From a virus (taxonomy: Duplodnaviria; Caudoviricetes), in IMG/VR virus record IMGVR_UViG_3300009082_000959: a stretch of DNA of 64,000 nucleotides; one strand, given 5' to 3'. The translations under genes and the position numbers were made by a program. Positions 2,107 to 29,300 of the stretch are shown piece after piece; position 1 is the first letter of the stretch, and every line of letters begins with the position of its first letter. Below the pieces are notes generated by a model. The model ran no database searches and was not told the origin of the DNA. It saw only the letters and a program-made list of their open reading frames with translations.

Positions 2107-2289
2107 ATGGAGTTACAAACAATGAGTTATCATGAAATTGAAATAATGCTTACAGCTATTAAAGATTTCATAGATAGTTTAAATGAAACAATTGCTAACA
2201 ACGCAATAGATGACGTAAGAAGAACAAATGAGCAGTATCGTGAGGCAATTAAGTTGGTTGGTGAAATAGATGGCCGCATTAAAAGATAA
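2107..2289 (+). CDS. Small helical hypothetical protein (possibly the N-terminal part of 2270..2728)
   Basis: 60 aa amphipathic helical ORF coupled to the upstream stop (TAAATAATG). It overlaps the next ORF by 20 nt. Confidence 0.55.
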   Translation: MELQTMSYHEIEIMLTAIKDFIDSLNETIANNAIDDVRRTNEQYREAIKLVGEIDGRIKR

Positions 2290-2728
2290 TATAGCAGAAG
2301 ATCTTGCAAAAAGTCTTGAGTCTGCTACACATCTTATGAAGAATCTTCTTGGAGACATAAAAGATAATGCGGCATCAGCAGCGGCAGTTAAGTCAAAGTT
2401 AGAGTCGTTGTCAGATAATGTTGCAACACTATTACACGATAGCAACGGTAGAGGCTCTGTCATTACCAGGCTAACACTGGTTGAAAAAGAAATTGAAAAC
2501 CTAGAAGAAAGATTTGATGATTTTGAAAAAGACACTGCTGATTCTTTTTTAGATATTAAGTCTGGTATCAAAGAACAAAAAAAATTCGAAGAAGCTACAC
2601 TTAGTCAGGAAAAAACCTTCAGGCGCGACAAACTAATAACAAAATTAAAATTAGCGGCAGTAATTGCTCCTGGAACTTTATCATTAATAATATTGGCACT
2701 AAAAGCCTTAACAGGACTTGTTCCCTAG
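2270..2728 (+). CDS. Coiled-coil protein with C-terminal transmembrane helix (holin-like or membrane-anchored)
   Basis: Heptad region (RLTLVEKEIENLEERF) followed by hydrophobic LAAVIAPGTLSLIILALKALTGLVP. Confidence 0.6.
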   Translation: MAALKDNIAEDLAKSLESATHLMKNLLGDIKDNAASAAAVKSKLESLSDNVATLLHDSNGRGSVITRLTLVEKEIENLEERFDDFEKDTADSFLDIKSGIKEQKKFEEATLSQEKTFRRDKLITKLKLAAVIAPGTLSLIILALKALTGLVP

Positions 2729-15687: not shown

Positions 15688-18600
15688 ATGGCGTGGGATT
15701 CAAAAAAAGAAGAAACTTTTTCTGCACTGGAAAAACTATTAGATCAAAAAACCAATACACTTGGAACAACGGGCGGCAGTGTAGAAGAGCCGTTTAGAAA
15801 ACAAACCAATGTAATCCTAGGTGAAACTTGGCGTCTTGATCCCACTGTTGGGTCCGCAGAAGAATTAGTTGCTCCAAAATTCGACGGGTATGGGGTTGTT
15901 GGTTCCGTGGCTTCGAGATATGAGAGTTTACGACTTCATTCATATTTACCTTCTGGTGAGACTGGGCCAAATTCCTGTCAAACTTTTATAGTCGTTTCCA
16001 CTGCACCTACTTCTCACGCAATTTCCGACATAGATTCTGTAAGAATGAAAGACTTAATTCCACCAGTATATTCTCCTGGAAAATCTGATGCTGCCGAATC
16101 TGACGACTCTATTCGTGGTTTTGAGTTAGCACTTTATCCAGCCGCTTGTTATGGGGGTGTCGGTTCTGTGCTAGTCCCAGACCTAAACAAAAAAATTCCG
16201 ACTACTGCCGATCCAAGTGCTGTGTACGGCGCTGGTGAAAATGGATGGTCTGTTGATTACCTAAACGGAATTGTCCGACTTAGCGTTCCGCCCCTCAATG
16301 GACCAACAGGTGTATTTAATCCGAATGATGTGTTTGGTGACCTGGAAGGCAATAGAGCAGATGATGCCTATGGAAGTATTACACTTTTCGCAACATTTTA
16401 CCAATATAGTGGTTCCTATGGTTGGACAGAAAATCAGGACCTAGTTACCGTTGGTGATGGAGTTATAAGTACTGGAACTTATACTGGAAATTCACACAAC
16501 ACTATACAGTCTGCCATAGATTCACTGCCACACGGCGGAACTGTTTTTATTAAAGAGGGTAATTATTATTGCAGTTCTCCGATCGAGGTAAAACACGGAA
16601 TACATTTAAATGGAAGCAATAATACGAATATATTTTCGCCAGCGGGTAATTATCTTCTCGATATATCAAAGTCGCAGGTTTCCGTTAGTGGAATAAATTT
16701 GTTCGCTCCAGATGGCCAAACAAACACATCACTGATAAGAATAGGTTCAGACATAGATGGCTATTCTTTAAATGATGTAAGTATAAACAACAACAAACTT
16801 AATTGTAAGCTTGCAACCAATGGTATTTTATTACGCGCAGACGAGTATATGTCTTTTAAGAACTTGGATATTAGCGATAATACTTTTTCCATACAAGATG
16901 AGAATAACACAGTTTTTATTATTGGATTTGGAAATAGACTAGAGTCGTCACAACAATTAACTGCATGGACTACGGCTACTGGTATTTCTCAAACAATGTA
17001 TGGTGGGTATTTCAATGGAACTTTGTTTTGTATAGTTGGGGCTACTGGAGCAATATATACATCATCCGATGGTGTTTCGTGGACAGCTAGAACAGCAGAT
17101 AACAGCTATGGTGATGATTTTCACTCAGTAATTTACAACGGAACGCTGTGGTGTGCTGTTGGCGAAACTGGAGAAATTCAGACTTCACCAGATGGCGAAA
17201 CGTGGACTCATAGGGTTGCTGACTCAAGCTACATTGGAACATTTTATTGTGTCGGTTTTGATAGCGATGGAATGTTTTGTGTTGCAGGAGAAACGGGAGA
17301 AATTCAAACATCGACTGACGGAGAAACCTGGACGCACCAAACGGCTGATGATAGCTTTGCAGAAATATTTTATGGTATAGTTTATGGCAGTAATACGTGG
17401 TGCCTAGTGGGTGATAGCGGAGAAATTCAGACTTCACCAGATGGCGAAACGTGGACTCATAGAGTTGCTGATGCCGGATATACTGTCGGTACATTTTATT
17501 CAGTAGCACACAATCGGGTCAACACATTTATGGTCGTTGGTGAGGATGACGAGATACAGATTTCCTCGGACGCAGTGTCTTGGGAAAGTACTCATTCGAG
17601 TGTGGGAACTAATTTTGGTTCGGTTGTGTTTGATTATGGTAGAAATAAATGGATATTGTCAGGCTATGAAAATAATACTATTTTTACAACAACCGATGGT
17701 ACGAGTTTAGTTAGTTTGCCAGATTCAAATGGCACAGATGTATTCGGTCTTATGATTGCTCAGCAACCGACCGACCCAACTTTTATTTCTGTAAATTCAG
17801 ATAACCAGAGTTGTGTTTTTGGTAGTTTGTCAATTGCTAATAATAAGTTTGAGGCAGAAGAAAATAGAGAGTGTTTGGTAGAAATAATTGGCAACAATTC
17901 TTCTTTCGAACACATAAATATATCTGATAACATTGGTAGGGCAAAACTCAAAGTTTATATAGATGACGCGTATATGTCTAGCGTAGTGGTTGATGGTAAC
18001 TCATTTTATTCTGCTGATGTAGGACGTATTTCTGATTCTGTGTTTAGTAATAACACGATAGCAGACGATGTAACGATTACTGCTGCCATTAACTCTGATA
18101 TTTCACATAATATAATAGGCGGAACACTTGACCCAACGCTTGAAAATACACTGGTTTTTGGCAATAATATAACTGGTGATTTTAAAGCGGAGCACGTTTG
18201 GAATTCTTCTGTTTCCGAAAACATCGTAGGTGGAGCATTAACCATAGCAGATGGCCTAACTGATGGTGGAACAGTTTTGTTGGATTCAAAAATAAACAGC
18301 AATACTATTACAGGGGCTTTTAGTATTGCTTTGTCTTATACTGATTCACTAACCGCGCCGATAATAGATAGTGCTGTGTGTTCTGGAAATAGTGCTGCGT
18401 CGTTTGCTGTTGGCAGCACAAGTTTCGATGATGCAAGGCCAAGTTGCCAGAAATTTGTGTTCTCTGATAATATTATTACCGGAAATCTTGCAGTAAGAGG
18501 AAAAACACAGGAATCTTCTTATTCTGGCAATCAGATATTTGGTTCTTGTACTTTGGAGCCGGTTGCAAATTTCTCTTTCTCTGATGGATATGTTGGAACT

Positions 18601-20733
18601 ACTTGTGCAATTGGAGCATCAATTACTTATGGCATGGCAATAGAAAAAACAAGAATTGCTAATAATAATTTTGTTGGAAATGTTTCATTGGGAATAAGTC
18701 TTATTGACGGTGTTGTTTTATCGAACGCAAATATAGAAGACAACATAATGGGGGCAAGTCTTGCGATTGCTTCTGCTGCTGTTGCTGGAAGTGATAATGT
18801 GGTTTATAAAACAAATATTACAGGCAATACTATTGCAGGAAACTTTACTATTGGTGCTACTAGTGCAGGTTCGGCGTCCGATATAGTCCTAATAAAAAAT
18901 TCAAATATATCGGATAACATGGTTGAGGGTGTTTTGATTTTTGGTAGTTCAACGCGAAACCCACCAAATAATTGGACTTATTATGATAATAATATTAACA
19001 ATAACACCATAGGTGTAAGTTTTAGTATGTACGGCAAATGTGTTAGTTCTTCTTTGCACAAGAACGTTTCTTTGCATGGGGCATTTACCTGTGGTCCGTT
19101 GGCCCACTCCGTATTTTCTGATGGATATAGTGGCTCAACCATAACGATTGGAAATACACTGGTATCTGGTACTGCCGTTGCTAACTCGGATATAAAGAAT
19201 AATCAAGCCATTACCACGATAACCGTTGGACCGAGTTTGACATCTGGGTCTGCGCTTTCAAAATCAACTTTTGTGAATAACGCCTGCTACTCTACACTGG
19301 GTTTGGGTACATCTGTTACATCTGGTGATATTATTATCTATTCCTCTGTGAATGATAATAAAGCAACTGATTTTTCAATAGGGGTTGGCTTAACTGGCAC
19401 CACAACTGGCACCGTGCTGAAAGAAGCAGTTGTTAAAGGAAATTGGATTGATAGACATTTTGCACTTGGTAATACATCTCGCGACATTGATACCGAGACG
19501 TTCTTGGATAGTGTAATTTCTGATAACATAATTGAGTCAAATTGTACATTTAGTGGCTTAATTACAGATTGTAGTATAACAAACAACTCAATTGGTGGAA
19601 CTTTTTCAAGAGACAGCATAAGTGGAACGGTAAACATAATCGGTAACATTGGTACATTGGATGGATATATTTCGCAGAACGGCGACCTAAATATATCTGC
19701 TGGCACCAATGATATTATACTTCACTCTCGGGTTGTTCAAAATGGGCCGGATGGGTCATCTGTTATTTCTGACAATGGAAATTTGCTTTTTCATGACGGG
19801 TCTAGCTATATTGATATTAAAACATTTTTATTAACACTTGGTTCTTCTACTTTTACGCACAGATCACCTGATAATAGTTTTGATGGAGCATTTCAGGGTT
19901 CCTCTCACAGCAACGGAACTGATACCTGGTGTTTGGTGGGTGAACATGGAGAAATTCAATCGTCGTCCTTTGGATATACGTGGGTCCATAGAACTACTGA
20001 TAATAGTTACTCAGGTATGTTTTCATCGATTTGTTGGGGTGCAGACAAGTTTTGTGCCGTTGGTTCTTCTGGAGAAATTCAGACTTCACCCACTAGTGAA
20101 ACATGGACGCATAGAACTTCAGATAATAGTTACTCAGGTACATTTCAATCTGTTTCACACAATGGAACAGATTTGTGGTGTGTTGTTGGTGAGACTGGAG
20201 AAATTCAGACTTCACCAGATGGTATAACGTGGACTCATAGAGTTGCCGATTCAAGCTACATTGGAACATTTTATGGGGTTTCACACAATGGAACAGATTT
20301 GTGGTGTGCTGTTGGCGCGGACGGAGAAATTCAGACTTCACCAGATGGCGAAACGTGGACTCATAGAGTTGCTGACAATAGTACCACCAATGACCTATCT
20401 AGGGTTATACATAATGGTGTTATGTGGTGTCTAATTGGTGATTCACTTGAAATGCAAACATCCTTTAACGGGTTTGTGTGGGCTAGTCAAAGCGCAATAA
20501 ATGAACAGCTTCTTGGTATAAATACGAATGGTTTTGGTTTATTTATTGCAGTTGGGAATACTGGAGCTATTTGGATATCGGTAGATGGTATTAGGTGGAG
20601 AAAGCGACATTCTGGTTTAAGTAGCCCATATCCTTCCTTTACTACGATAGCGCATAATCAAGATGGAATGTTTATTATTGCTGGCACCGATGGTGAAATT
20701 CTAACGTCATTAAGGGTTTTGTTTGAAATATAG
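15688..20733 (+). CDS. Tail fibre/tailspike with parallel beta-helix regions and two BNR/Asp-box-like beta-propellers
   Basis: TIQSAIDSLPHGGTVFIKEGNY (pectin-lyase-like start), many N/I-rich beta-helix rungs, and two clusters of GEIQTSPDGETWTHR repeats. Confidence 0.85.
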   Translation: MAWDSKKEETFSALEKLLDQKTNTLGTTGGSVEEPFRKQTNVILGETWRLDPTVGSAEELVAPKFDGYGVVGSVASRYESLRLHSYLPSGETGPNSCQTFIVVSTAPTSHAISDIDSVRMKDLIPPVYSPGKSDAAESDDSIRGFELALYPAACYGGVGSVLVPDLNKKIPTTADPSAVYGAGENGWSVDYLNGIVRLSVPPLNGPTGVFNPNDVFGDLEGNRADDAYGSITLFATFYQYSGSYGWTENQDLVTVGDGVISTGTYTGNSHNTIQSAIDSLPHGGTVFIKEGNYYCSSPIEVKHGIHLNGSNNTNIFSPAGNYLLDISKSQVSVSGINLFAPDGQTNTSLIRIGSDIDGYSLNDVSINNNKLNCKLATNGILLRADEYMSFKNLDISDNTFSIQDENNTVFIIGFGNRLESSQQLTAWTTATGISQTMYGGYFNGTLFCIVGATGAIYTSSDGVSWTARTADNSYGDDFHSVIYNGTLWCAVGETGEIQTSPDGETWTHRVADSSYIGTFYCVGFDSDGMFCVAGETGEIQTSTDGETWTHQTADDSFAEIFYGIVYGSNTWCLVGDSGEIQTSPDGETWTHRVADAGYTVGTFYSVAHNRVNTFMVVGEDDEIQISSDAVSWESTHSSVGTNFGSVVFDYGRNKWILSGYENNTIFTTTDGTSLVSLPDSNGTDVFGLMIAQQPTDPTFISVNSDNQSCVFGSLSIANNKFEAEENRECLVEIIGNNSSFEHINISDNIGRAKLKVYIDDAYMSSVVVDGNSFYSADVGRISDSVFSNNTIADDVTITAAINSDISHNIIGGTLDPTLENTLVFGNNITGDFKAEHVWNSSVSENIVGGALTIADGLTDGGTVLLDSKINSNTITGAFSIALSYTDSLTAPIIDSAVCSGNSAASFAVGSTSFDDARPSCQKFVFSDNIITGNLAVRGKTQESSYSGNQIFGSCTLEPVANFSFSDGYVGTTCAIGASITYGMAIEKTRIANNNFVGNVSLGISLIDGVVLSNANIEDNIMGASLAIASAAVAGSDNVVYKTNITGNTIAGNFTIGATSAGSASDIVLIKNSNISDNMVEGVLIFGSSTRNPPNNWTYYDNNINNNTIGVSFSMYGKCVSSSLHKNVSLHGAFTCGPLAHSVFSDGYSGSTITIGNTLVSGTAVANSDIKNNQAITTITVGPSLTSGSALSKSTFVNNACYSTLGLGTSVTSGDIIIYSSVNDNKATDFSIGVGLTGTTTGTVLKEAVVKGNWIDRHFALGNTSRDIDTETFLDSVISDNIIESNCTFSGLITDCSITNNSIGGTFSRDSISGTVNIIGNIGTLDGYISQNGDLNISAGTNDIILHSRVVQNGPDGSSVISDNGNLLFHDGSSYIDIKTFLLTLGSSTFTHRSPDNSFDGAFQGSSHSNGTDTWCLVGEHGEIQSSSFGYTWVHRTTDNSYSGMFSSICWGADKFCAVGSSGEIQTSPTSETWTHRTSDNSYSGTFQSVSHNGTDLWCVVGETGEIQTSPDGITWTHRVADSSYIGTFYGVSHNGTDLWCAVGADGEIQTSPDGETWTHRVADNSTTNDLSRVIHNGVMWCLIGDSLEMQTSFNGFVWASQSAINEQLLGINTNGFGLFIAVGNTGAIWISVDGIRWRKRHSGLSSPYPSFTTIAHNQDGMFIIAGTDGEILTSLRVLFEI
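17170..20375 (+). repeat. Near-identical DNA repeats in two propeller clusters
   Basis: GGAGAAATTCAGACTTCACC occurs exactly at 17170, 17419, 20071, 20197 and 20323. A 44-nt stretch is identical at 17170, 17419 and 20323. The period is about 126 nt. Confidence 0.95.
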
Positions 20734-20737
20734 TGTT

Positions 20738-21493
20738 ATGAATAATCTTAAATTATCAGAAAAAGACGCTTTTATCATTGGAACTGGGCCATCTACCGCG
20801 AAATTACTAAAACACAAACACTTACTAAATAATTTTACCGTTATTGGCCTTAATTTTTCTATAAAAGATTTCGAAGAAAACCTTGATTATCATATAGTTA
20901 TGGAAAAAGAACCAAATGTTATATATAATTATATGAAAAATAATCCCTACAGAGAAGACTTGCCAAGGATAATAAACAAAATTCCTTTGAGATTTTTTCC
21001 AAAGGATGCAAATCTAATTCCAGCGGTTAGATGTGATTTTAAACACAAACCAAGTCTCCGCTCTTATACAAACGAATTTGGTTCAGGATTATTTTCTGGG
21101 TATATAACCCACACAATAAGGCAACCAGCAAGTGTTTGTCTGCAAGCACTTCATTTGGCTGGCATTTTGGGTTGTAAAAATGTTTACACAATAGGATGCG
21201 ACTTTTTATTTCAAGGTGATTTACGATATTATACTGGATACGACAACAAAGACCACAAATCTAATATTTCTACCTCCATTGTCAGGCCAAAGAATATAGT
21301 TGAAGTAGATTTTTGTGGAGAAAAACGACTAACAGCCGAATGCTATAAAAATACGGCCGATTGGACGAATAGGTTTATAAAAGAAGTGTGTCGTCCAGAG
21401 ATGGAAGTCTATGATTTTAGTGGTGGTCTTTTAACAGCCGCCATTCAATTAAATTTAGAAGAATTTATGGGAAAATATGAAAACAATATTTAA
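20738..21493 (+). CDS. Maf/DUF115-like (CstII-fold) glycosyltransferase-like protein
   Basis: AFIIGTGPS, VIGLN, DYHIVME and SVCLQALHLAGILGCKNVYTIGCDF match the family pattern. ATG 20738 is preferred over the tracked TTG 20723. Confidence 0.8.
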   Translation: MNNLKLSEKDAFIIGTGPSTAKLLKHKHLLNNFTVIGLNFSIKDFEENLDYHIVMEKEPNVIYNYMKNNPYREDLPRIINKIPLRFFPKDANLIPAVRCDFKHKPSLRSYTNEFGSGLFSGYITHTIRQPASVCLQALHLAGILGCKNVYTIGCDFLFQGDLRYYTGYDNKDHKSNISTSIVRPKNIVEVDFCGEKRLTAECYKNTADWTNRFIKEVCRPEMEVYDFSGGLLTAAIQLNLEEFMGKYENNI

Positions 21494-22493
21494 TATAATA
21501 ACGAATAAGTATGTTTTGCTTGCACTTATCGCCGTGTTTGTTGGTTTAGCAATACAAATAAAGGTTTGCTCTGTCCAAGAAAACGAAAGACTGGCAACTT
21601 ACAACCGCCAATTAAGTGGACAACTTACAGAGCAAGAACATTTGCTACAATCTGCTAATCATGAACTTGGAATTGCTAATTCAAGATTAGTTACACAGAA
21701 ACAACTAGCGGACGAATTAGAGAAAGCGAAGCTGGAAGTAGATAAAGAATTCGAAGCTTTCAAAAAAGAGCATAATTTGGTGATTGCTAGTAAAGACCTA
21801 GCTATAGCAAGATTGGAACAGCAATTACAAGGTTCTTCTGGAACCACTGTTGTTCCCGTTACACAAACTGACCAAGAATTATGTCTGAAAATTGAAGAAA
21901 AATGCGTAATTGGTTATACTTGGGCTGATAATTTTGGGCGGTTCTCTCTTATTGACCCAAATATTTTTAAATCTGGTGACGAAATCGTCACAATCAATCA
22001 ATATTTTAGAGTACTTGTGGAGACATTTAAGCAGCAAGATGGGTCTTTGATGATCCAGCGACTAGTTTTAAGAGAAGTATATCCAGACGGTTCCGGTGGT
22101 TATAAAGAAGTCCCAAACGGAAAAGCAGAAATTGTTGAACACGAATTTGTTTATGACAATGCACCAATTGAAATTCCGGAATGGTCTGCTTGGGATTTAT
22201 TTAAATTGCGCATGGTTGTGGGAATTGGAACAGAAATTTTCCCAGAACCAGGTGATTTAAGACTTTCCGTTGGTTTGCAGTTTTTTGGGTGGCGTGGACT
22301 GGGTGTTAATAGTCACACTGGACTTGATTTCGATGACCCAAAAAACATTGCGCAGTACTTGGCCATTTCTTATGCGCCAGAATTCGATGATTTCAAGTTA
22401 AACATTGGGCTTGAGGTTGCGGTAGGAACATTTTTGTATAAACCATTTGATGAATACAGTGTGAAGGTGGGCCTTATGTTTTATTTGTGGTAA
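21477..22493 (+). CDS. Membrane protein with N-terminal anchor, coiled coil and C-terminal amphipathic beta-strands (spanin-like)
   Basis: TM segment YVLLALIAVFVGLAIQI, coiled coil of about 85 aa, about six alternating strands ending SVKVGLMFYLW. Confidence 0.65.
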   Translation: MKTIFNIITNKYVLLALIAVFVGLAIQIKVCSVQENERLATYNRQLSGQLTEQEHLLQSANHELGIANSRLVTQKQLADELEKAKLEVDKEFEAFKKEHNLVIASKDLAIARLEQQLQGSSGTTVVPVTQTDQELCLKIEEKCVIGYTWADNFGRFSLIDPNIFKSGDEIVTINQYFRVLVETFKQQDGSLMIQRLVLREVYPDGSGGYKEVPNGKAEIVEHEFVYDNAPIEIPEWSAWDLFKLRMVVGIGTEIFPEPGDLRLSVGLQFFGWRGLGVNSHTGLDFDDPKNIAQYLAISYAPEFDDFKLNIGLEVAVGTFLYKPFDEYSVKVGLMFYLW

Positions 22494-22521: not shown

Positions 22522-23226
22522 ATGAGAAAACTATCTTTTGTTTTATTGTCTGTTATTTTTTGTTCTTGTACGGTTAATTTGGTAGTTCCGCCGATTGTTT
22601 CAGATAGCACCACAAAAGTAGATACAACCAGAGAATCAATGAATTCGGTTGTAAGAATCTCTGCAAATACACCCGACGGAACAACTGCATTAACTGGAAG
22701 TGGTTGGGCTAATTCGAAAGACACAATACTAACCGCTGGGCATGTTTGTTGGGCAATTATATCACTTCAAAAGGCCGGAGTTTTGGAAGATAATATCGAT
22801 ATACACTATTTAAACAGAGTAGATGCCCTCAGCAAGATATCTGGTGTTGAAATAGTAGATGTTTCAGATAAAGATGATATTTGTTTGCTGTACTCTGAAA
22901 ATCACGGGTTGCCGGTTTTGCAGTTTGAGGAAAGCAAAAATATAAAGTTTAATGGAGTAGCAATTGTATTAGGGTTTCCTCTTGGTGTTATGATAACCTA
23001 TAATAACGGAACAATTATTGTTCCAGATACTGGTAATTATTTTGATATTGAGGTTTTGCGAAATAAACTTATAGTTTCCTCTGCAAGTACTTCTGGTAAT
23101 AGTGGTGGGCCAGTGATAAATGAACATGGAAAAGTGATAGGAATGCTAATCGCGGGCCCGAGCAATGGGTACGATCATCTATCGGTGTGCGTTACTGTTG
23201 ATAGTATTAAGTCATTTATAAAATAA
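22522..23226 (+). CDS. Trypsin-like (S1) serine protease, probable lipoprotein
   Basis: Catalytic triad motifs ILTAGHVC, DDICLL and GNSGGP. Signal peptide ending IFCSC (Cys16). No PDZ domain. Confidence 0.9.
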   Translation: MRKLSFVLLSVIFCSCTVNLVVPPIVSDSTTKVDTTRESMNSVVRISANTPDGTTALTGSGWANSKDTILTAGHVCWAIISLQKAGVLEDNIDIHYLNRVDALSKISGVEIVDVSDKDDICLLYSENHGLPVLQFEESKNIKFNGVAIVLGFPLGVMITYNNGTIIVPDTGNYFDIEVLRNKLIVSSASTSGNSGGPVINEHGKVIGMLIAGPSNGYDHLSVCVTVDSIKSFIK

Positions 23227-23244: not shown

Positions 23245-26200
23245 ATGAGTGTTTTTCCTGATGCCATAGATTCAGATTTAGAATTGCCGCGCGTGGAGAA
23301 TAATGTTTCCGAAATTAGCGGAGACACGATAAATTCTGTTAGGGATTCTGTGTTAGCAATAGAAAATGCCATTGGTATCAATCCACAGGGAAACACTGCT
23401 GACCTGACAACTCGCATTGGTTTGGTTATAGATGCCGACGGAAGAGTTAAAGCATCTGCTTTGGCATCCAGTGGGTTGGTGACTCTTCCAATTTCTAATT
23501 CCCAAATAGGTGTAAATGCCGCAATAGAGGAATCAAAATTAGACCTGGATTACCCCACCGCAACACTTAATGCCAGCTTGGGTACAATATCGGCTAATTT
23601 GAGTGCTCTAATAACAACAATAAATTCACTAGCTTATAATACGGCAAGTCACTACGCCGGAACAGGAAACAAACACAAAGGAACTGCCATAGATTTGGTT
23701 TCTCCAATTTTAGGCGGAACAAATGTTGAGTCTGCACTTGGACTAGTCAATACTGCTCTTTCTTCACACACGGCATCTACACTAAATAGTCACACGGCTA
23801 GCAGCATTTCTTTATCCGGGCCATTTATTAATATAGATTCCGACGATGTTGAAGAAGCAATAGGCGAATTAGACATAGGTCAATCTGCGGCAATAGAGGA
23901 ACACCAAGACAAGTTACACAGAAATGGAATAGTAATAGGAGAAAGATCATCTTCGCAAATTAATTCGGAATACACCACGTTTGCTGGAACAATATACCAA
24001 ACCGATACCGATGAAGCGACAAATATATTTCAAATAATGAGACCAAATGTTGCACGCATTTCAAGTAAAAACATAGACTTACGCGCATTATCTTCTACTA
24101 CTGCCAGGAACCTAAGAATTCAGGCAGGTGGGGTTGGTCGTGGAACGCTGGATGTAGATTTGGTTTCTACAATACCAGCTGACTCGATTGATGAAATTGT
24201 TGAGGTAATAAATACACAAGCACGCGAGCAACACTACCCTATTTCTGCCTATAATACCGGTGCTTTGACTTTGGCCCACAATATACCTGGCGCACAGTAC
24301 ACACTAGAGGTTTTAGATACCATATCACTAGACGCATCTAATGCGCTGGGTTTTTCTGGCATAACAAACGTAGTGTGCTCTTGGCCAGATAATGTGCCTG
24401 GATGCTTTGTTTCTGGCAAAAAAATAAGTGGAATAAAATCAATAGTATCGTGCGCGTGTGTTCAAACATCTCTTAGTCCAACAATTAATCCGGCAGTAGG
24501 TAATTTAAGTTTGCTGGGATTATCTGGGAATGAAGGAAGAGTTTTGTGTAATATCACCAATCACAGCACAGACTCTACGGTCAATGGAACATACTATATA
24601 ATAAATTATCCAACAACAAGTACAATAACACTAAATGATGACATTGCGGCTGGAACTTTTGATTTAGAAATAGCCGCAGACTCTATCAACTTCGAAAATA
24701 GTGCAAGAGGGGAATTATTTGATATTTTTGTAGAACACGATCCAGATGGATATATTGGCCACGGAGTACTTAAAAAATATAATCGTGTGAGTTATGGTAC
24801 AATACCAGGTGTTGTATTGAAGTGCGTAAGTAATGACTTCGTAGATAGTGGTGATTTTGAGTGGGGAGTTTCTTCTTCTGGATATCTTACTTTATATCAT
24901 AATGGAAATGCAGGAGTATCAAAGGGAATTTCAACTGGATATGTTGGGCAAATTGAGGTTTTTGCCCCCAACAATACGACTAGCGCTGTGTTTCAGGTTC
25001 ACGGTAATTTTTCTGCGGCAAGAAAAGAATTCAATGTAAGCGAATTTGCCGGAAGTGATGACAAACTATACTTGGGATCAATTCACTACGGCGGAAATTT
25101 TGGACTACAAACTATTAAATATTTTATGGATAGTAGAGTCTTTGGTTCAACACAAGACACTGAAAGCAATGATGTTATTAATAAAATAAAAACAGACGAT
25201 CTTGCTAGTGAATTAAGAAACAACGGCGTCATACGTGGGTTTGATATAGAAAGTTACCTTAATACATCTTTGAGAGTTCGTGGCGGCCGGGCTCTCATAA
25301 GTGGCAAAATAATAGACGTAGAAACAAAAGATGTAACGGTTGATGTTTTTACAGAAGCAACCAGGATGCTTTTATTAGATATTAATGGAGATTACCTAAT
25401 AAAAGATACGGCCAATGTTGGGTTTTCCTTTGATGAACTCACCAGTGGTACTAATTTTGGTGATGAGGCCGGAGTTGCTCTTATTTGCGAATTTAATACC
25501 GATGGTTCCAAGATAGATGGGTACGTCACAGACAGACGACTTTTTGTAAATAAAATAGACAAACGCTTGAATGATTTAGACTCCAGTCTTGGCGCGCGAA
25601 TAGAGAATGTGCTCAGCACTGTTAGTGGTGGGTACTGGGGATTTACTATAGCAGAAACAGCAAATGAGGATGGTTACATTGCTGAATTGGAAATGGCAAA
25701 TCACGATGGCTTTAATTTTGTTCCTGACACAAATCAAACCGAGTATTCTGCGTGGGGGTTTGGAGCAGGTGAATCATCAATAACGACACGTAGATTTCAA
25801 TTTGTGTCGCCCTCTTTAAATAAAACATCTATATTTAAGTCAGTTGGTTTGACGCACATTAATGTTTTTTTGGATGCAACCTATACTGGTGATCAGGATG
25901 GTATTTTGGGGCCATTTGGTGTGAGTGGAACAGTATATGTAGATATTGGTGTCGCAGTTACTGTTGGCTTAGCAAATCAAACAACAACAGAATCGTATGC
26001 TTTAGTAAAAACAATAAATGCTGGTGTTTTCCCAGTTATATCACAGATAGAGCGTTATGTTGCGTCTATTCCTGCAACTGATCTTAATCTCCAGGATAAT
26101 GTCATGTTTGATGTTGTTCCTCGCATTAGAATTCGCAACACAAATTACGTCGACGGAGGTACGGGGCCAGACCCCGAACCAACTATTCTGTTCGATAACG

Positions 26201-26298
26201 TTCGTGTCGTGACAAGTAGCTATAGTGTTGCTGGCTCAGTAGGTGATATAGATGGAACTTCCACTTCTGTTGGTGTAGCAATAAGTGATATATTATAA
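23245..26298 (+). CDS. Large virion fibre-like protein, paralog of 26313..31424
   Basis: MSVFPDAIDSDLELPRVENNVSEI start, HTASSI motifs, LRNNGVIRGFD...VRGGRALISG block shared with the next gene. Confidence 0.8.
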   Translation: MSVFPDAIDSDLELPRVENNVSEISGDTINSVRDSVLAIENAIGINPQGNTADLTTRIGLVIDADGRVKASALASSGLVTLPISNSQIGVNAAIEESKLDLDYPTATLNASLGTISANLSALITTINSLAYNTASHYAGTGNKHKGTAIDLVSPILGGTNVESALGLVNTALSSHTASTLNSHTASSISLSGPFINIDSDDVEEAIGELDIGQSAAIEEHQDKLHRNGIVIGERSSSQINSEYTTFAGTIYQTDTDEATNIFQIMRPNVARISSKNIDLRALSSTTARNLRIQAGGVGRGTLDVDLVSTIPADSIDEIVEVINTQAREQHYPISAYNTGALTLAHNIPGAQYTLEVLDTISLDASNALGFSGITNVVCSWPDNVPGCFVSGKKISGIKSIVSCACVQTSLSPTINPAVGNLSLLGLSGNEGRVLCNITNHSTDSTVNGTYYIINYPTTSTITLNDDIAAGTFDLEIAADSINFENSARGELFDIFVEHDPDGYIGHGVLKKYNRVSYGTIPGVVLKCVSNDFVDSGDFEWGVSSSGYLTLYHNGNAGVSKGISTGYVGQIEVFAPNNTTSAVFQVHGNFSAARKEFNVSEFAGSDDKLYLGSIHYGGNFGLQTIKYFMDSRVFGSTQDTESNDVINKIKTDDLASELRNNGVIRGFDIESYLNTSLRVRGGRALISGKIIDVETKDVTVDVFTEATRMLLLDINGDYLIKDTANVGFSFDELTSGTNFGDEAGVALICEFNTDGSKIDGYVTDRRLFVNKIDKRLNDLDSSLGARIENVLSTVSGGYWGFTIAETANEDGYIAELEMANHDGFNFVPDTNQTEYSAWGFGAGESSITTRRFQFVSPSLNKTSIFKSVGLTHINVFLDATYTGDQDGILGPFGVSGTVYVDIGVAVTVGLANQTTTESYALVKTINAGVFPVISQIERYVASIPATDLNLQDNVMFDVVPRIRIRNTNYVDGGTGPDPEPTILFDNVRVVTSSYSVAGSVGDIDGTSTSVGVAISDIL

Positions 26299-26312: not shown

Positions 26313-29300
26313 ATGAGCGTTTTCCCAGATGACCTCGATTCCGATCTAGAAATTGCCAGAATCGAAAATAATGTTTCCGAAATTGGCGGTGATGTACTTA
26401 ATTCCTTGCGCGACGCTGTTTTTGCAATTCAGCGTGTGCTTGGTATTAATGCGCAAGGAAACAAACCAAGTTTAACAAGCCGCATTAATGTTTCTTTGGA
26501 TGCTGATGGTAATATAAAGCCAAGTTCTCTTGAAGGTATTGGTTTGGCGACCCTACCAATAACAAATTCACATGTTGGTGATAATGCAGCAGTACAAGAA
26601 TCAAAACTGGATCTTGATTTTGGGACACAATATTTAAAAAACCTCATAAGCTCTGCTCGTACCGATCTTGATGCCATCACTGCATCGGTTTCCTCACAGG
26701 GTTCTGGACTGAACCTTCATATTTTGGGCCTTGGCAATTATCACGACGGATATCATATAAAAATAAATAGCGGCACTCAAATTGGCGTCGCAGGTATGGC
26801 CTCTATCACAGTTGGTGACGCAATAAATGAATTAAGCACACGGTTGTTTTCTGGAAGCACAACAACAGAGCCACACATAGATTTAAACGTACCCTCAACA
26901 ACAAAACACGCAGCAAGCGGAATATCTGTTGATAGTTCTGATTTTGTCAGTATCGATCAGTCAATTTCCACTGTCCAAGGCGCAATAGATGCACTGGATT
27001 CTGGGTCAAATCTTTTAATAGAAAAGCATGTTGATGAGCTTCATGCCAACGGAATAATTAAAAATGTTCGATCATATGAGTTTTTTAATTCTGATCGTCG
27101 TTTGATTGGCCCAGTGAGTGGCGTTACTTATGCTTCTGGTGGAAGTGTTGTTACACTGACTGGAGAGACATCTCTATCATCTTATAAAATAAGTGTTGGG
27201 GATGTTTTAGTTATACACACTATGTCCGGTGTTCTGGATGTTGGAGCATTCCAAGTAAGAGCAATAGGTCCCTTAGCAGAAAGTGATACACTAGGTGATT
27301 TGCCCTCATTACTAGCAAATCAGGTTGCCGTATTTCATATTTTTTCTGAAACCAAGGCATCTGGTGACGGTGTTTCGGCGAGCATATACAAACCAGGACA
27401 AGTATCAAGTGAATATGCCCCATTGGCGTGCGGTATTAGACCGAACGAGACCATGGTTGATACAATTTCGGTTGTACGACCAGATGCGGCAAGGGTTGTT
27501 AGTGTTGGATTCAATGGCGCAATACTGGCTGCCGACGGATATGATGTAAAAATAAAAGTTGGTCTTGGAAATAGCACCTTCAGAGAGCTAATAATTACAG
27601 ATCTAAATTATGATAGGATTGGAACAAACAAATCGAATCCAGTAAATTCAGAACACGTTGCAGAACGAATTAATGCATTTGTGTCAGACCCAAATTCAGA
27701 AAATCACTTTCCCATTACAGCGGCAGGTGTTGGGAATGAACTAGTAATAGCACACGATTTGGTTGGTCCGGAATATACAATAGAAATTATGGAAGGATTT
27801 AATGGAAATTATCCGTTGGGTCTGGATGCATACGGAGCAGATGTCGCCGGAAATGTGGTTGTTGGAAACCTAAATTGTTTGTATAATATAAATGGAACCG
27901 GTATACGTTCAATTGCAACAAAGTTCACCGGAACTGCATCTATTAATTCTGCGACTGGAACCTTTTCTGTTTATAATAGTGACGGTCAGCTAATAAACCC
28001 ACTGAATTATGGAATTGGCCCAGGTTCTGTTATTCATATACTTGATCACCAGACCACAGAAACAAATGGTAGTTATACAGTATTGACCGCAACTACAACA
28101 TCTATTTCTGTATTTTTAGCAGAACAAATAGATGCGCCCACGTCACCTACCACATTTACGGTTGAGGCATACGAATCTCATGTGTCATTAAACTCAATTA
28201 GCGGGACAGAGACAGATAATGGAACTGTGCAAATATTTGTAGATGAGGATGGCAGAACACAAGTTCATCAAAGAATATCGTATGGAACAAGTTTTGGTTC
28301 TGCCTTTGAGATTGTATCTATATCAAATACTTTCCCAGAAGGAACATTTAGTATCTTAATTGACTCCGTTGGAAGTCTTTTGTCGTTCAATCTTCTTGAT
28401 GACTCATTCGCTGGTGATACCGTTTCCGTTGATGAAACATTTACTGGTGGATTCAAACTATATCACCCGAATGGCCTTGACTATATAACAATACATATAG
28501 AGGATGGGTCAGTGGTTGTTGGAACAGAAACACTAATTGTTTCTTCTGCCGCCAATGATGATTATTCTCTATTACTATGTACCGCGAATTTTAACGGTGA
28601 TATTGAAATAACCAATCTGGTTGACGGAAGATTATTTGGTAATATCGGGGCTGATCAAGTCCGCGATGATTTTATTGAAGTTTTTAGCCAGCTTCCCATT
28701 TCTGATTTAAGGTCCGATGGCGTTGTTCGTGGTTTCGATTTAGTTGCACTAACATATGCCGATGTGGTCACTGGAATGCAGGCACTACCTTTGCGTGGTG
28801 GCGTGGCATACGTAGATGGTGTAAGGGTGTCAGTAGAAACACAAAAAGTGATAGTGAATTCATTTAACGATGACGAAACCCTTATTAATGGTGATAGAAT
28901 AGTTGCCATTAATAACTTTGGATCAATTGAGGTTTTGCAGGATAGCATTGGAGAAATGCTGACAGATGGATATTACGCCAGTTCATCTCTTGGAAAGCTT
29001 CTGCCACTTTATAAGGTCTCCGTAGTAAATGGAGAAATATCAACCGTAATTGATATCAGAAGGTTTATAAACGACCTAGATAGTAAGTTGGATTTGGTTG
29101 TAGATGAAACAAATAATGTGGTGGGGAATTTTAGAAGCCTTGAGGGAGCACTTTTGTTTGCCGAAAGCTACCCAAACAGAGAGCACCTTACTGTTAGGAT
29201 TCTTAATTCCGTGCATCCGACTAGAAAGATTGTCGTTCCGAATGGAGTATCTTTGGTTGGAGGATTACCATTTGGCGGTGGCAGACACAAAATAATAAAT

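What the first reader, a model, noticed from the sequence alone, without database searches (positions are those of the whole stretch)
21477..22493. Candidate one-piece spanin with inverted topology (inner-membrane anchor, coiled coil, outer-membrane beta-strands)
It has an uncleaved-looking N-terminal TM, about 85 aa of coiled coil, a beta-rich middle, then about six amphipathic strands (RMVVGIGTE, RLSVGLQFF, GLGVNSHTG, QYLAISYAP, NIGLEVAVG, SVKVGLMFYLW) ending in an aromatic residue like a BAM beta-signal. Known spanins are Rz/Rz1 pairs or the T1 gp11 type (N-terminal OM lipoprotein, C-terminal TM). A protein tethered to the outer membrane by a partial or oligomeric barrel would be a different design. 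It implies a diderm host.
Basis: inference. Interest (0 to 1): 0.65.

Follow-up and report, generated by a model that had tools for sequence, protein, structure and literature searches.

The report
Phage envelope-spanning protein with mini-barrel
An uncultivated huge phage encodes a 338-residue protein that looks built to sit in both bacterial membranes at once (inner-membrane helix, coiled-coil stalk, tiny six-stranded barrel with a greasy outside), and gene neighbours in relatives tie it to cell-wall lysis, so it may be a new one-piece device for breaking the outer membrane, though no experiment shows this.

Summary
It founds a conserved family: 149 clusters at 50% identity, with no Pfam or PDB sequence match and no homolog in 50,697 cultured-phage records.

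Across the family there is an N-terminal 20-residue uncharged signal-anchor, a heptad-periodic coiled coil, a confident beta middle domain and a C-terminal closed six-stranded up-down barrel (pLDDT about 97). One strand face is purely hydrophobic with aromatic rims. The other is Gly/Ser/Asn-rich and is the only face small enough to fill such a barrel. This points to membrane insertion.

Function is unproven. For a lysis role:
- In Myxococcota genomes the homolog is followed directly by a lipoprotein GH25 muramidase.
- In several phages a small 2-TM, holin-like gene overlaps its start, and in another complete genome that same small gene sits in the peptidoglycan-hydrolase cluster.
- A complete 188-kb relative shows no canonical spanin.

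Against:
- In this window and 11 relatives' contigs the gene lies among tail-fibre genes.
- There is no homology to lambda Rz.
- Cellular homologs exist.

Verdict: a dual-membrane-spanning protein is likely (about 0.6) and a spanin-like role is the best single guess (about 0.4). The scan's first readers flagged this same stretch twice more.

The parts
21477..22493 (+). Whole gene, 338 codons plus stop. Its start overlaps the end of the upstream MptE-like gene by 17 nt.
   Evidence: family of 149 clusters
21510..21566 (+). Residues 12-30: N-terminal transmembrane signal-anchor, predicted N-in and uncleaved
   Evidence: KD 2.35; 92 of 93 relatives have it, uncharged stretch median 20 aa, lipobox in 8 of 93, net charge N-side > C-side in 63 of 93; the helix runs straight into the coiled coil
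21579..21830 (+). Residues 35-118: coiled-coil stalk. It has a strongly conserved juxtamembrane motif (TYNRQLxGQLT) and invariant glycines G48 and G65, which are possible hinges.
   Evidence: period 3.5 in the family profile; helices 11-46, 52-63 and 74-98 with low-confidence breaks at 48-50 and 54-74; invariant columns
21882..22172 (+). Residues 136-232: middle beta domain with the conserved cysteine pair C136/C143 and the near-invariant motif Y147..R155-F-x-L-x-D-P-N-I. No confident fold match.
   Evidence: pLDDT >90; best Z about 5
22197..22490 (+). Residues 241-338: six-stranded up-and-down mini-barrel with a hydrophobic outer face, aromatic rims, a Gly/Ser/Asn inner face carrying R245/E268/K-H280/D332/N309, and a beta-signal-like end (T/S-x-D/G-L-I-F-Y-L)
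   Evidence: pLDDT about 97; 9xzt Z 9.5-9.6; 8-strand outer-membrane proteins Z about 5
23245..26298 (+). Context: 1017-aa fibre/spike-like gene. Its homolog lies immediately downstream of the target gene's homolog in 12 contigs of related phages, down to 27-29% identity.
15688..20733 (+). Context: giant variable fibre-like gene, the conserved upstream neighbour in the close clade (L001-L006)
22522..23226 (+). Context: trypsin-like serine protease with a signal peptide and a lipobox-like IFCSC. It is a window-specific insert between the target and the fibre gene and is not a conserved neighbour.
   Evidence: a lipoprotein S1 protease also occurs elsewhere in complete relative G350
20723..21493 (+). 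Context: MptE-like/DUF115 gene, a window-specific insert upstream of the target
   Evidence: homolog near the target in L036

Best explanation
The gene encodes a late-expressed cell-envelope protein that spans the whole periplasm of a diderm host as one chain.

Proposed anatomy:
- Residues 12-30 are an uncleaved inner-membrane anchor.
- Residues about 35-118 form a coiled-coil stalk, probably a dimer or trimer.
- Residues 136-232 form a conserved beta domain.
- Residues 241-338 fold into a six-stranded mini-barrel. Its greasy belt, about 23 A tall, sits in the outer membrane, presumably inserted by BAM through its beta-signal-like last strand.

Proposed role: it does the job of a spanin. It is held extended by the peptidoglycan mesh. 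When the phage's hydrolases remove the wall, the stalk folds at its conserved glycine hinges. This pulls the two anchored membranes together and breaks or fuses the outer membrane.

Shown by computation: the domain anatomy, its conservation and the gene neighbourhoods. Inferred: membrane insertion of the barrel, oligomeric state, timing, and the fusion or disruption step itself.
For: Anatomy:
- Signal-anchor in 92 of 93 relatives.
- Heptad period 3.5.
- Conserved periplasmic cysteine pair.
- Barrel pLDDT about 97.
- One strand face has 36 positions with no charged residue in 64 sequences and aromatic residues at both rims. The other face is 60% G/S/T/A/N with four conserved charges.
- Side-chain volume is 3366 A3 on the greasy face and 1599 A3 on the small face, against a 2838 A3 cylinder for n=6, S=8. 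Only the small face fits inside (inference).
- Structural neighbours after the designed barrel BBn6 are the 8-strand outer-membrane proteins OprF-N, CarO, PagL, OmpA, NspA and OmpW. Atlas structure neighbours are PagL, OMP_b-brl and DUF481.

Feasibility: Bacteroides Dma1 was shown experimentally to sit in both membranes (PMC10927553).

Host type: all 13 bacterial genome hits are Myxococcota.

Link to lysis:
- In 7 of 10 informative myxobacterial loci the next gene on the same strand is a lipoprotein GH25 muramidase.
- In L032, L034, L038 and G351 an 81-84-aa 2-TM protein overlaps the target's start, and positional analogues precede it in L033, L044 and L048.
- In complete genome G350 that small gene (58% identical) lies instead beside homologs of the genes that flank G351's SAR-like lysozyme and M15 peptidase cluster.
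- A heuristic scan of complete G351 found no Rz/Rz1-like pair and no T1 gp11-like protein.
- There is no embedded lipoprotein ORF in the window gene or its 17 phage homologs, so any outer-membrane link must be intrinsic to the chain.
- Repeated weak hits of the N-terminal part to PHROG 214 'Rz-like spanin', E 0.005 to 9e-6.
Against: - In this window and in 11 relatives' contigs the gene is wedged between tail-fibre genes, not in a lysis cassette. T4's holin gene lies next to its tail-fibre genes (from general knowledge), so position is weak evidence.
- The PHROG 214 hits are nonspecific: the same search 'rings' in 13 of 14 control genomes. hhalign against lambda Rz gives probability 0.6%.
- Stand-alone homologs sit in myxobacterial chromosomes among ordinary cellular genes. 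A dedicated phage lysis protein would not be expected there.
- The muramidase partner is a Sec/Lol-exported lipoprotein without a holin, which suits a wall-remodelling or predation module as well as a lysis one.
- G350 has a 161-aa TM plus coiled-coil ORF preceded by a weak lipobox ORF. This could be a conventional spanin.
- Homology between the two kinds of small upstream membrane protein is not established (BLASTP E 3.8; hhalign P 0.005), and neither matches a named holin family.
- No natural six-stranded transmembrane barrel is known. The best structural match is a soluble design.
- Coordinates of the model could not be inspected, so which face points inward is inferred and not seen.
Confidence: 0.4

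Rival explanations
1. It spans or bridges the envelope but is not a lysis protein. It could be a tether, a superinfection-exclusion or entry-blocking device, or a scaffold that positions an exported hydrolase. Candidate hydrolases are the GH25 lipoprotein in myxobacteria and the lipoprotein-like S1 protease in this window. Co-expression with the fibres would let it change the surface or periplasm of the infected cell.
For: - The same architectural evidence as for the best explanation.
- Linkage to the fibre gene persists down to 27-29% identity.
- From general knowledge, outer-membrane or exclusion genes are known inside tail regions: lambda lom, T5 llp next to pb5, and cor.
- An exported hydrolase with a lipobox lies directly downstream both in myxobacteria and in this window.
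- Cellular homologs lack phage genes around them.
- The near-invariant motif in the middle domain suggests a universal ligand such as peptidoglycan.
Against: - The predicted external loops are only 5-9 residues, too small to mask a receptor.
- The protease neighbour is unique to this window.
- This reading does not explain the recurrent overlap with the small 2-TM gene, or that gene's alternative position in a hydrolase cluster.
- The patchy distribution in Myxococcaceae (7 of 121 genomes) argues against a housekeeping envelope role.
Confidence: 0.27
2. The C-terminal domain is not in the outer membrane. The protein is an inner-membrane-anchored periplasmic protein, Rz-like or TolA-like, whose small barrel is soluble or binds a partner. 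In myxobacteria the partner would be the downstream lipoprotein, so the pair forms a two-component bridge.
For: - The best fold match is the soluble designed barrel BBn6 (Z 9.5-9.6; PMC12478100).
- No Pfam outer-membrane-protein family matches even at E 10.
- All known outer-membrane barrels have 8 or more strands (general knowledge).
- The gene order, TM/coiled-coil protein followed by a lipoprotein with an Ala/Pro-rich linker, mimics i-spanin followed by o-spanin.
- In many relatives the chain does not end on an aromatic residue, or it carries a C-terminal extension.
Against: - The phage relatives have no lipoprotein gene embedded, overlapping or adjacent.
- A soluble barrel would have to bury 3366 A3 of side chains in a 2838 A3 cylinder and expose a surface that is 60% Gly/Ser/Thr/Ala/Asn with almost no charge in mid-strand.
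- Near-invariant glycines on that face imply tight packing, not exposure.
- Aromatic residues cluster at both strand ends of the greasy face.
Confidence: 0.2
3. It is a virion or tail-assembly component, such as a fibre-associated coiled-coil protein or an ejected membrane-inserting protein. The hydrophobic N-terminus would act during infection and not as a biosynthetic anchor.
For: - Strict position between fibre genes in 12 contigs, with 10-nt gaps.
- Coiled coil plus beta C-terminus recalls fibritin-like proteins (general knowledge).
- Gly/Ser/Asn-rich strands are common in fibres (general knowledge).
Against: - An N-terminal 20-residue hydrophobic helix would send the protein to the membrane co-translationally.
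- A conserved cysteine pair suits an oxidising compartment.
- In four contigs the gene lies between nuclease genes and the terminase gene, away from tail genes.
- Myxobacterial chromosomes keep the whole architecture, with a lysozyme neighbour and no virion genes.
Confidence: 0.08

Closest known systems
Two-component spanins (lambda Rz i-spanin with Rz1 o-spanin)
   Same: Type II N-terminal membrane anchor, a periplasmic coiled coil interrupted by hinge-like breaks, conserved periplasmic cysteines and late expression. The predicted length is about right to cross the periplasm. There are weak PHROG 214 hits.
   Different: No o-spanin gene is embedded, overlapping or conserved downstream. The chain carries about 200 extra residues, a beta domain plus a barrel, that would make the outer-membrane link itself. 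There is no sequence homology to lambda Rz. In this window it is not in a lysis cassette.
Unimolecular spanin, T1 gp11 type (PMC6139136)
   Same: A single polypeptide proposed to reach both membranes, with a beta-rich periplasmic part.
   Different: [quoted passage not shown] This protein has an N-terminal TMD, cysteines, a coiled coil and a C-terminal barrel.
[quoted passage not shown]
   Same: One chain with an inner-membrane alpha-helix and a C-terminal outer-membrane beta-barrel. This is the experimental precedent that such proteins can be made.
   Different: Dma1 has a cytoplasmic anti-sigma domain, a disordered linker and an 8-strand OMP_b-brl_2 barrel next to an ECF sigma gene. This protein has only about 11 cytoplasmic residues, a coiled coil and a six-strand barrel with no Pfam match.
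Small 8-stranded outer-membrane barrels (OmpA N-domain, OmpX/Ail/lambda Lom, PagL, OmpW, CarO, NspA)
   Same: Up-and-down meander, hydrophobic belt with aromatic girdles, small or polar interior with a charge cluster, short turns on the side of the chain termini (presumed periplasmic) and a beta-signal-like last strand. Z is about 5.
   Different: Six strands, not eight. No cleavable signal peptide. No HMM match. It is tethered to the inner membrane.
BBn6, designed six-stranded barrel (PDB 9xzt; PMC12478100)
   Same: Same backbone: n=6, shear about 8, strands of about 10 residues. Z is 9.5-9.6 with rmsd 2.5 A over 85 of 90 residues.
   Different: BBn6 is a soluble design with a hydrophobic core. 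Here the composition implies the reverse polarity. The designers report that this fold has rarely if ever been seen in nature.
TolA / TonB / VirB10-type envelope-spanning proteins
   Same: An inner-membrane anchor with an extended periplasmic part that reaches outer-membrane components (general knowledge).
   Different: There is no sequence or fold match. Those proteins contact or insert in the outer membrane by other means, and none has a C-terminal beta-barrel.

Membership tests
i-spanin (Rz-like) of two-component spanins | N-terminal transmembrane domain with the rest of the protein in the periplasm | tested here: met
   92 of 93 family members have an N-terminal hydrophobic 19-mer; the uncharged stretch has a median of 20 aa; there is a charge bias N-side > C-side.
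i-spanin (Rz-like) of two-component spanins | Periplasmic coiled-coil helices | tested here: met
   AlphaFold2 helices 11-98; 3.5-residue periodicity in the family profile.
i-spanin (Rz-like) of two-component spanins | Cognate o-spanin lipoprotein gene embedded in, overlapping or next to it | tested here: not met
   No lipobox ORF in the other frames or within 200 nt downstream of the window gene or its 17 phage homologs. The downstream lipobox-like protease is unique to this window.
i-spanin (Rz-like) of two-component spanins | Sequence relationship to a known i-spanin family | tested here: inconclusive
   PHROG 214 E 0.005 and 9e-6 to 4e-3 in relatives, but the control rings in 13 of 14 genomes. 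hhalign against lambda Rz gives probability 0.6%.
i-spanin (Rz-like) of two-component spanins | Required for outer-membrane disruption; complements Rz/Rz1 mutants | not testable with these tools
   Needs an experiment.
u-spanin (T1 gp11 type) | N-terminal outer-membrane lipoprotein signal (lipobox) | tested here: not met
   A standard lipobox is present in only 8 of 93 members, several of them inside the TM. The window protein has IKVC.
u-spanin (T1 gp11 type) | C-terminal transmembrane helix | tested here: not met
   The C-terminus is six beta strands. The only hydrophobic helix is N-terminal.
Integral outer-membrane beta-barrel proteins | Even number of amphipathic strands with a lipid-facing hydrophobic belt and aromatic girdles | tested here: met
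   Six strands. The greasy face has 0.00 charged residues over 36 positions in 64 sequences, with aromatic residues at F242, W272, Y299, F335 and at F257, F283/285, F320, Y327.
Integral outer-membrane beta-barrel proteins | At least eight strands and a cleaved Sec signal peptide | tested here: not met
   Six strands. The N-terminal segment is TM-length and lacks a cleavage motif.
Integral outer-membrane beta-barrel proteins | C-terminal beta-signal (polar-x-G-x-x-aromatic-x-hydrophobic, usually a terminal aromatic) | tested here: inconclusive
   T/S330-x-(D/G/N)332-L-I-F335-Y-L337 is conserved, but G is present in only 23% of members, the terminal aromatic in 23%, and some members carry extensions.
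Integral outer-membrane beta-barrel proteins | Match to an outer-membrane-protein profile or fold | tested here: inconclusive
   No Pfam hit even at E 10. VIA Z is about 5 to 8-strand outer-membrane proteins. Atlas TM-scores are 0.51-0.61 to PagL, OMP_b-brl and DUF481 clusters.
[quoted passage not shown] | Cytoplasmic anti-sigma domain and an adjacent ECF sigma gene | tested here: not met
   Only about 11 residues precede the TM. The neighbours are fibre genes.

The most novel reading that the evidence does not exclude
This is a third topological class of spanin. A single chain is anchored by a helix in the inner membrane and by an integral six-stranded beta-barrel in the outer membrane. That barrel would be the smallest natural transmembrane barrel and a natural, inside-out version of a fold so far known mainly from de novo design. 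The family is shared by a wide clade of uncultivated huge phages and by mobile lysozyme-linked two-gene modules in myxobacteria.
Probability: 0.3. Interest if true: 0.8.

Novelty: new variant of a known kind. Interest (0 to 1): 0.6.

Why it matters
About 13% of phages of Gram-negative hosts had no recognisable spanin in the 2018 survey (PMC6139136), and huge phages are largely unannotated for lysis. A one-piece, barrel-anchored envelope-spanner would give a concrete, testable candidate for that gap.

It would extend the recently discovered class of proteins inserted in both membranes beyond Bacteroides Dma1. It would challenge the eight-strand lower limit for outer-membrane barrels. It would also raise the question of how BAM handles a client that stays tethered to the inner membrane.

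The myxobacterial pairing with a lipoprotein muramidase offers a genetically tractable system for testing the family. Myxococcus relatives are cultivable.

Tried and rejected
Family and structure searches:
- Pfam on the whole protein, on 64 relatives and on the isolated C-terminal domain gave only coiled-coil noise or nothing.
- The PDB sequence profile search gave only coiled-coil noise.
- Foldseek against the PDB gave nothing at E<=1e-3 for either model.
- BFVD found one uncharacterised family member and weak phage outer-membrane-protein hits.
- tblastn of four family members against 50,697 cultured-phage records found no match, so there is no cultivated host or annotation to lean on.

Lysis-related checks:
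- Lambda Rz shows no homology.
- An embedded o-spanin was looked for in the window gene, 17 phage homologs and 3 myxobacterial homologs. None was found in the phage genes.
- Endolysin adjacency in phages was rejected. The Phage_lysozyme and Amidase_2 genes lie 49-135 kb from the target in G350-G352, and there is no GH25.
- Homology between the two small upstream membrane-protein types is unproven. They have no holin annotation, and there is no copy in this window or in the close clade's loci.

Other rejected ideas:
- A lipoprotein reading of the N-terminus (Cys31) was rejected. The cysteine occurs in only 39 of 93 members, mostly without a lipobox, and is absent from the myxobacterial homologs.
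- A cleaved ordinary outer-membrane protein was rejected on h-region length and the lack of a cleavage motif.
- A core myxobacterial envelope gene was rejected because of its patchy distribution: 13 of 301 and 7 of 121 genomes.

- No whole genome is held for the window, so the window's own genome could not be scanned for lysis genes.
- Broad alignments were too divergent for pattern-based locus searches.
- Model coordinates are not exposed, so side-chain orientation could not be read directly.
Full report
**1.

The window is the tail and baseplate region of an uncultivated huge myovirus. It has GC 35-43%, all large genes lie on the + strand, and it contains tail sheath, baseplate-like and giant fibre-like proteins. 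No cultured phage is close. Earlier notes of this scan place the genome in freshwater sediment.

The ORF at 21477-22493 is present exactly as described. Its ATG overlaps the end of the upstream MptE-like gene by 17 nt, so it is read with the late structural genes.

**2. It is a real, conserved and unnamed family**

- A word-indexed search found 36 full-length relatives at 38-55% identity, on contigs of up to 468 kb.
- An exhaustive profile search found 149 representative clusters (78 at E<=1e-30). Full-length members measure about 300-370 aa (shorter hits are fragments or a shorter ~255-aa variant), and none is fused to another domain.
- Pfam, PHROGs (apart from a weak hit discussed below), PDB sequences and 50,697 cultured-phage records give nothing.

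**3. Anatomy**

*N-terminus.* 92 of 93 relatives carry a hydrophobic 19-mer (mean KD 2.1) inside an uncharged stretch with a median of 20 residues. That is transmembrane length, longer than a signal-peptide core.
- Only 8 of 93 have a standard lipobox.
- A cysteine after the helix occurs in 39 of 93 and is missing from the bacterial homologs.
- No small-x-small cleavage motif follows the helix.
- Net charge is higher on the N-terminal side in 63 of 93.
- AlphaFold2 runs the helix straight into the stalk.

I read this as an N-in signal-anchor.

*Stalk.* The family hydrophobicity profile of residues 30-100 has its strongest period at exactly 3.5 residues, and the next 25 residues peak at about 7.3.
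- The model shows helices 11-46, 52-63 and 74-98, with low-confidence breaks at the invariant glycines G48 and G65.
- The juxtamembrane motif TYNRQLxGQLT is unusually conserved for a plain spacer.

*Middle domain (136-232).* It contains an invariant cysteine pair in the phage clade and the near-invariant Y147, R155-F-x-L-x-DPNI, G189, E200 and Y226.
- With a 109-row alignment it is modelled at pLDDT >90.
- It has no fold match above Z about 5.

*C-terminal domain (241-338).* It is modelled at pLDDT about 97 as six antiparallel strands in a closed up-and-down barrel.
- Its best PDB match, in both models, is the designed six-stranded barrel BBn6 (9xzt; Z 9.5-9.6, rmsd 2.5 A over 85 of 90 residues).
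- Next come a designed transmembrane barrel (Z 6.4-6.5) and the natural 8-strand outer-membrane proteins OprF-N, CarO, PagL, OmpA, NspA and OmpW at Z about 5.
- The BBn6 authors state that this fold (n=6, shear 8) has rarely if ever been sampled in nature (PMC12478100).

**4. Is the barrel in a membrane?**

I could not see the coordinates, so this is inference from composition over 64 diverse sequences.

- One strand face (36 positions) is Leu/Val/Ile/Phe with no charged residue at all. Aromatic residues concentrate at both strand ends: F242, W272, Y299 and F335 on one rim, and F257, F283/285, F320 and Y327 on the other.
- The other face (31 positions) is 60% Gly/Ser/Thr/Ala/Asn. It has near-invariant glycines (G266 94%, G276 97%) and four conserved charged positions that pair across neighbouring strands. 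For example, R245 with E268 co-occur in 35 of 64 sequences.
- Charges otherwise sit in the loops.
- The greasy face carries about 3370 A3 of side chain and the small face about 1600 A3. A cylinder drawn at the C-alpha radius of an n=6, S=8 barrel with 10-residue strands holds about 2840 A3, backbone included. Only the small face can be inside.
- The belt height of that geometry is about 23 A, which matches an outer-membrane core.
- The chain enters and leaves the barrel on the same side, as in all outer-membrane proteins.
- The last strand reads polar-x-(D/G/N)-L-I-F-Y-L, close to the BAM beta-signal. The glycine and the terminal aromatic are each present in only about a quarter of members, and one clade adds a short DLNPF tail.
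- ESM Atlas structure neighbours of this domain are PagL, OMP_b-brl and DUF481 clusters (TM-scores 0.51-0.61; leads only).

I put membership in the outer membrane at about 0.6. A single polypeptide in both membranes is not merely theoretical: Bacteroides Dma1, an inner-membrane helix with an 8-strand outer-membrane barrel, was shown biochemically to span both (PMC10927553).

**5. Context in phages**

*Among tail fibres.* In the six closest IMG/VR contigs the gene always lies between a giant variable fibre-like gene and homologs of the window's 1017-aa and 1703-aa fibre/spike genes, with gaps of about 10 nt.
- The MptE-like and trypsin-like genes that flank it here are inserts peculiar to this window.
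- A degenerate DNA-motif scan added 13 more contigs (GC 34-52%, 23-38% identity).
- In six of the more distant contigs (L024, L030, L033, L044, L046, L048) it is again immediately upstream of the fibre homolog. In two (L047, L049) it follows baseplate-like genes.

*Away from tail genes.* In four contigs (L032, L034, L038, L043) it lies elsewhere. The order is primase, SbcCD-like nuclease, an 81-84-aa membrane protein, the target, four small soluble proteins and the large terminase.

*The small membrane protein.* It has two hydrophobic segments and charged ends, and it overlaps the target's start by 4 nt.
- A positional analogue of 90-102 aa with a shared G...TGxE[YW] motif precedes the target in L033, L044 and L048.
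- Homology between the two types is only suggestive: BLASTP is not significant and hhalign gives P 0.005.
- Neither type matches a named holin family.

**6. Two complete relatives**

*G351 (187,750 bp).*
- It has a recognisable wall-hydrolase cluster at 3.4-5.8 kb: a T4-type lysozyme with an N-terminal hydrophobic segment, an M15-like peptidase, a 4-TM protein and a 61-aa TM protein. No Rz/Rz1-like pair lies beside it.
- The target, with its overlapping small membrane gene, lies 53 kb away.
- A simple genome-wide scan found no lipoprotein next to or inside a TM/coiled-coil gene and no lipobox-plus-C-terminal-TM protein.
- It found only one orphan 94-aa lipoprotein and one 154-aa TM-plus-helix protein, and these are not adjacent.

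*G350 (371,675 bp, terminal repeats).*
- The target is again upstream of the fibre gene.
- Its copy of the small membrane gene (58% identical to G351's) lies 200 kb away. It sits beside homologs (35-39% identity) of two genes that flank G351's lysozyme cluster, and 4.5 kb from a signal-peptide M15-like peptidase.
- The small gene therefore travels either with the target or with the wall hydrolases. This is the pattern expected if all three work in lysis.
- Caveat: G350 also has a 161-aa TM/coiled-coil ORF preceded by an ORF with a weak lipobox at 259.3-260.1 kb. I could not rule this out as a conventional spanin.

**7. Context in bacteria**

- A scan of one genome per species found 13 loci, all in Myxococcota: Archangium, Corallococcus, Myxococcus, Pyxidicoccus, Cystobacter and Vitiosangium. 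They are 31-39% identical, have GC3 >0.8 like their hosts, and keep the whole architecture down to a ...FVVY end.
- The distribution is patchy: 13 of 301 genomes sampled in the phylum and 7 of 121 in the family.
- The surrounding genes are cellular and not phage: deoxyhypusine synthase, beta-lactamase, an EamA transporter, and an nSTAND-WD40 gene in one locus.
- The one conserved neighbour lies immediately downstream on the same strand in L010, L013, L017, L019 (fragment), L027, L028 and L029. It is a lipoprotein with lipobox LVAC, SLAC or TVAC, an Ala/Pro-rich linker and a GH25 muramidase domain (E about 1e-41).
- This two-gene mobile module links the family to peptidoglycan hydrolysis in a diderm. 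It also shows that the family is not restricted to phages.

**8. Weighing the readings**

The two independent neighbour associations, with a muramidase and with a small holin-like protein that alternates between the target and a hydrolase cluster, point to lysis.

Against this:
- The gene sits in the tail-fibre module. This is weak counter-evidence, because T4 keeps its holin gene beside its fibre genes (general knowledge).
- There is no homology to Rz.
- The PHROG 214 hits are nonspecific.
- The cellular homologs and the exported, holin-independent muramidase would suit a wall-remodelling or predation module equally well.

My estimates are:

| Reading | Probability |
|---|---|
| Spanin-like outer-membrane disruptor | about 0.4 |
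| Another envelope role (tether, exclusion, hydrolase scaffold) | about 0.27 |
| Inner-membrane-anchored periplasmic protein whose barrel is not membrane-embedded | about 0.2 |
| Virion or assembly protein | about 0.08 |

**9. Novelty**

- Known spanins are Rz/Rz1-type pairs or gp11-type lipoprotein-plus-C-terminal-TMD proteins. The 2018 survey of 586 spanins (528 two-component, 58 unimolecular) lists no barrel-anchored form and leaves about 13% of genomes without a spanin (PMC6139136).
- Literature searches found no description of this family or of a barrel-anchored spanin.
- If the function is right, this is a new variant of a known kind of system.
- Independently of function, a natural, confidently modelled six-stranded meander barrel with reversed polarity is of structural interest.
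- Everything here is computational. The decisive tests are membrane fractionation and heat-modifiability of the barrel, complementation of a spanin-null lambda lysogen, and deletion of the myxobacterial pair.

Noticed in passing
window 22522-23226: A trypsin-like S1 protease (Trypsin_2, E 2e-13) with a signal peptide and a lipobox-like IFCSC. It is inserted between the target and the fibre gene only in this window. Complete relative G350 encodes a clear lipoprotein S1 protease (LLSCLIAC, TAAHC motif) at 200,734-201,432, weakly similar to this one (24% identity, E 0.002). Exported proteases therefore seem to recur in this phage group.
   Followed up: partly
window 20723-21493; L036:7175-7945: An MptE-like/DUF115 (Maf-type glycosyltransferase-like) gene is also a window-specific insert next to the target. 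A 32%-identical homolog lies 4 kb from the target homolog in L036.
   Followed up: partly
window 23245-23400 and 26313-26470: The 1017-aa and 1703-aa fibre/spike genes share a paralogous N-terminal stretch of about 50 residues (MSVFPD.(I/L)DSDLE..R.ENNVSEI.GD..NS.RD.V.AI...). This is presumably a common baseplate-docking adaptor.
   Followed up: no
L034:8264-8518, L032:2984-3217, L038:3924-4178, G351:57,704-57,949, G350:67,303-67,524; L033:2294-2566, L044:141-449, L048:3338-3646: Small (73-102 aa) membrane proteins with two hydrophobic segments, charged ends and a G...TGxE[YW] motif. They overlap or precede the target gene in seven of these eight contigs. In G350 the gene sits instead beside homologs of genes from a lysozyme/M15 cluster. 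They are unannotated holin-like candidates.
   Followed up: partly
L013:10984-11871, L017:6404-7336, L027:423-1430, L028:661-1482, L029:615-1688: Myxobacterial lipoprotein GH25 muramidases with long Ala/Pro-rich linkers form a patchy, apparently mobile two-gene module with the target homolog. In L014 an nSTAND1-WD40 NTPase gene starts 7 nt after the target homolog.
   Followed up: partly
L046:1330-1845, L049:7939-8541, L047:2109-3434, L041:2-784: The soluble proteins encoded just upstream of the target in these contigs share a short helical motif (..IA..L...G....A...D.L.). It may be the portable helical tag that earlier notes of this scan describe on head-module proteins.
   Followed up: no
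window 2270-2728: A 152-aa helical protein with a single C-terminal hydrophobic segment (residues 126-144), giving a tail-anchored topology. Its function is unknown.
   Followed up: no
G351:3,465-5,777 (L051): The likely lysis cluster of a complete 188-kb relative. It comprises a T4-type lysozyme with an N-terminal hydrophobic (SAR-like) segment, an M15-like peptidase, a 61-aa TM protein and a 112-aa 4-TM protein. No spanin lies beside it.
   Followed up: partly
G350:259,337-260,079: A 161-aa N-terminal-TM coiled-coil ORF is preceded, with a 10-nt overlap, by an ORF with a weak internal lipobox (AAGGC). It may be a conventional two-component spanin in reversed gene order. It lies 7 kb upstream of the target homolog.
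   Followed up: partly
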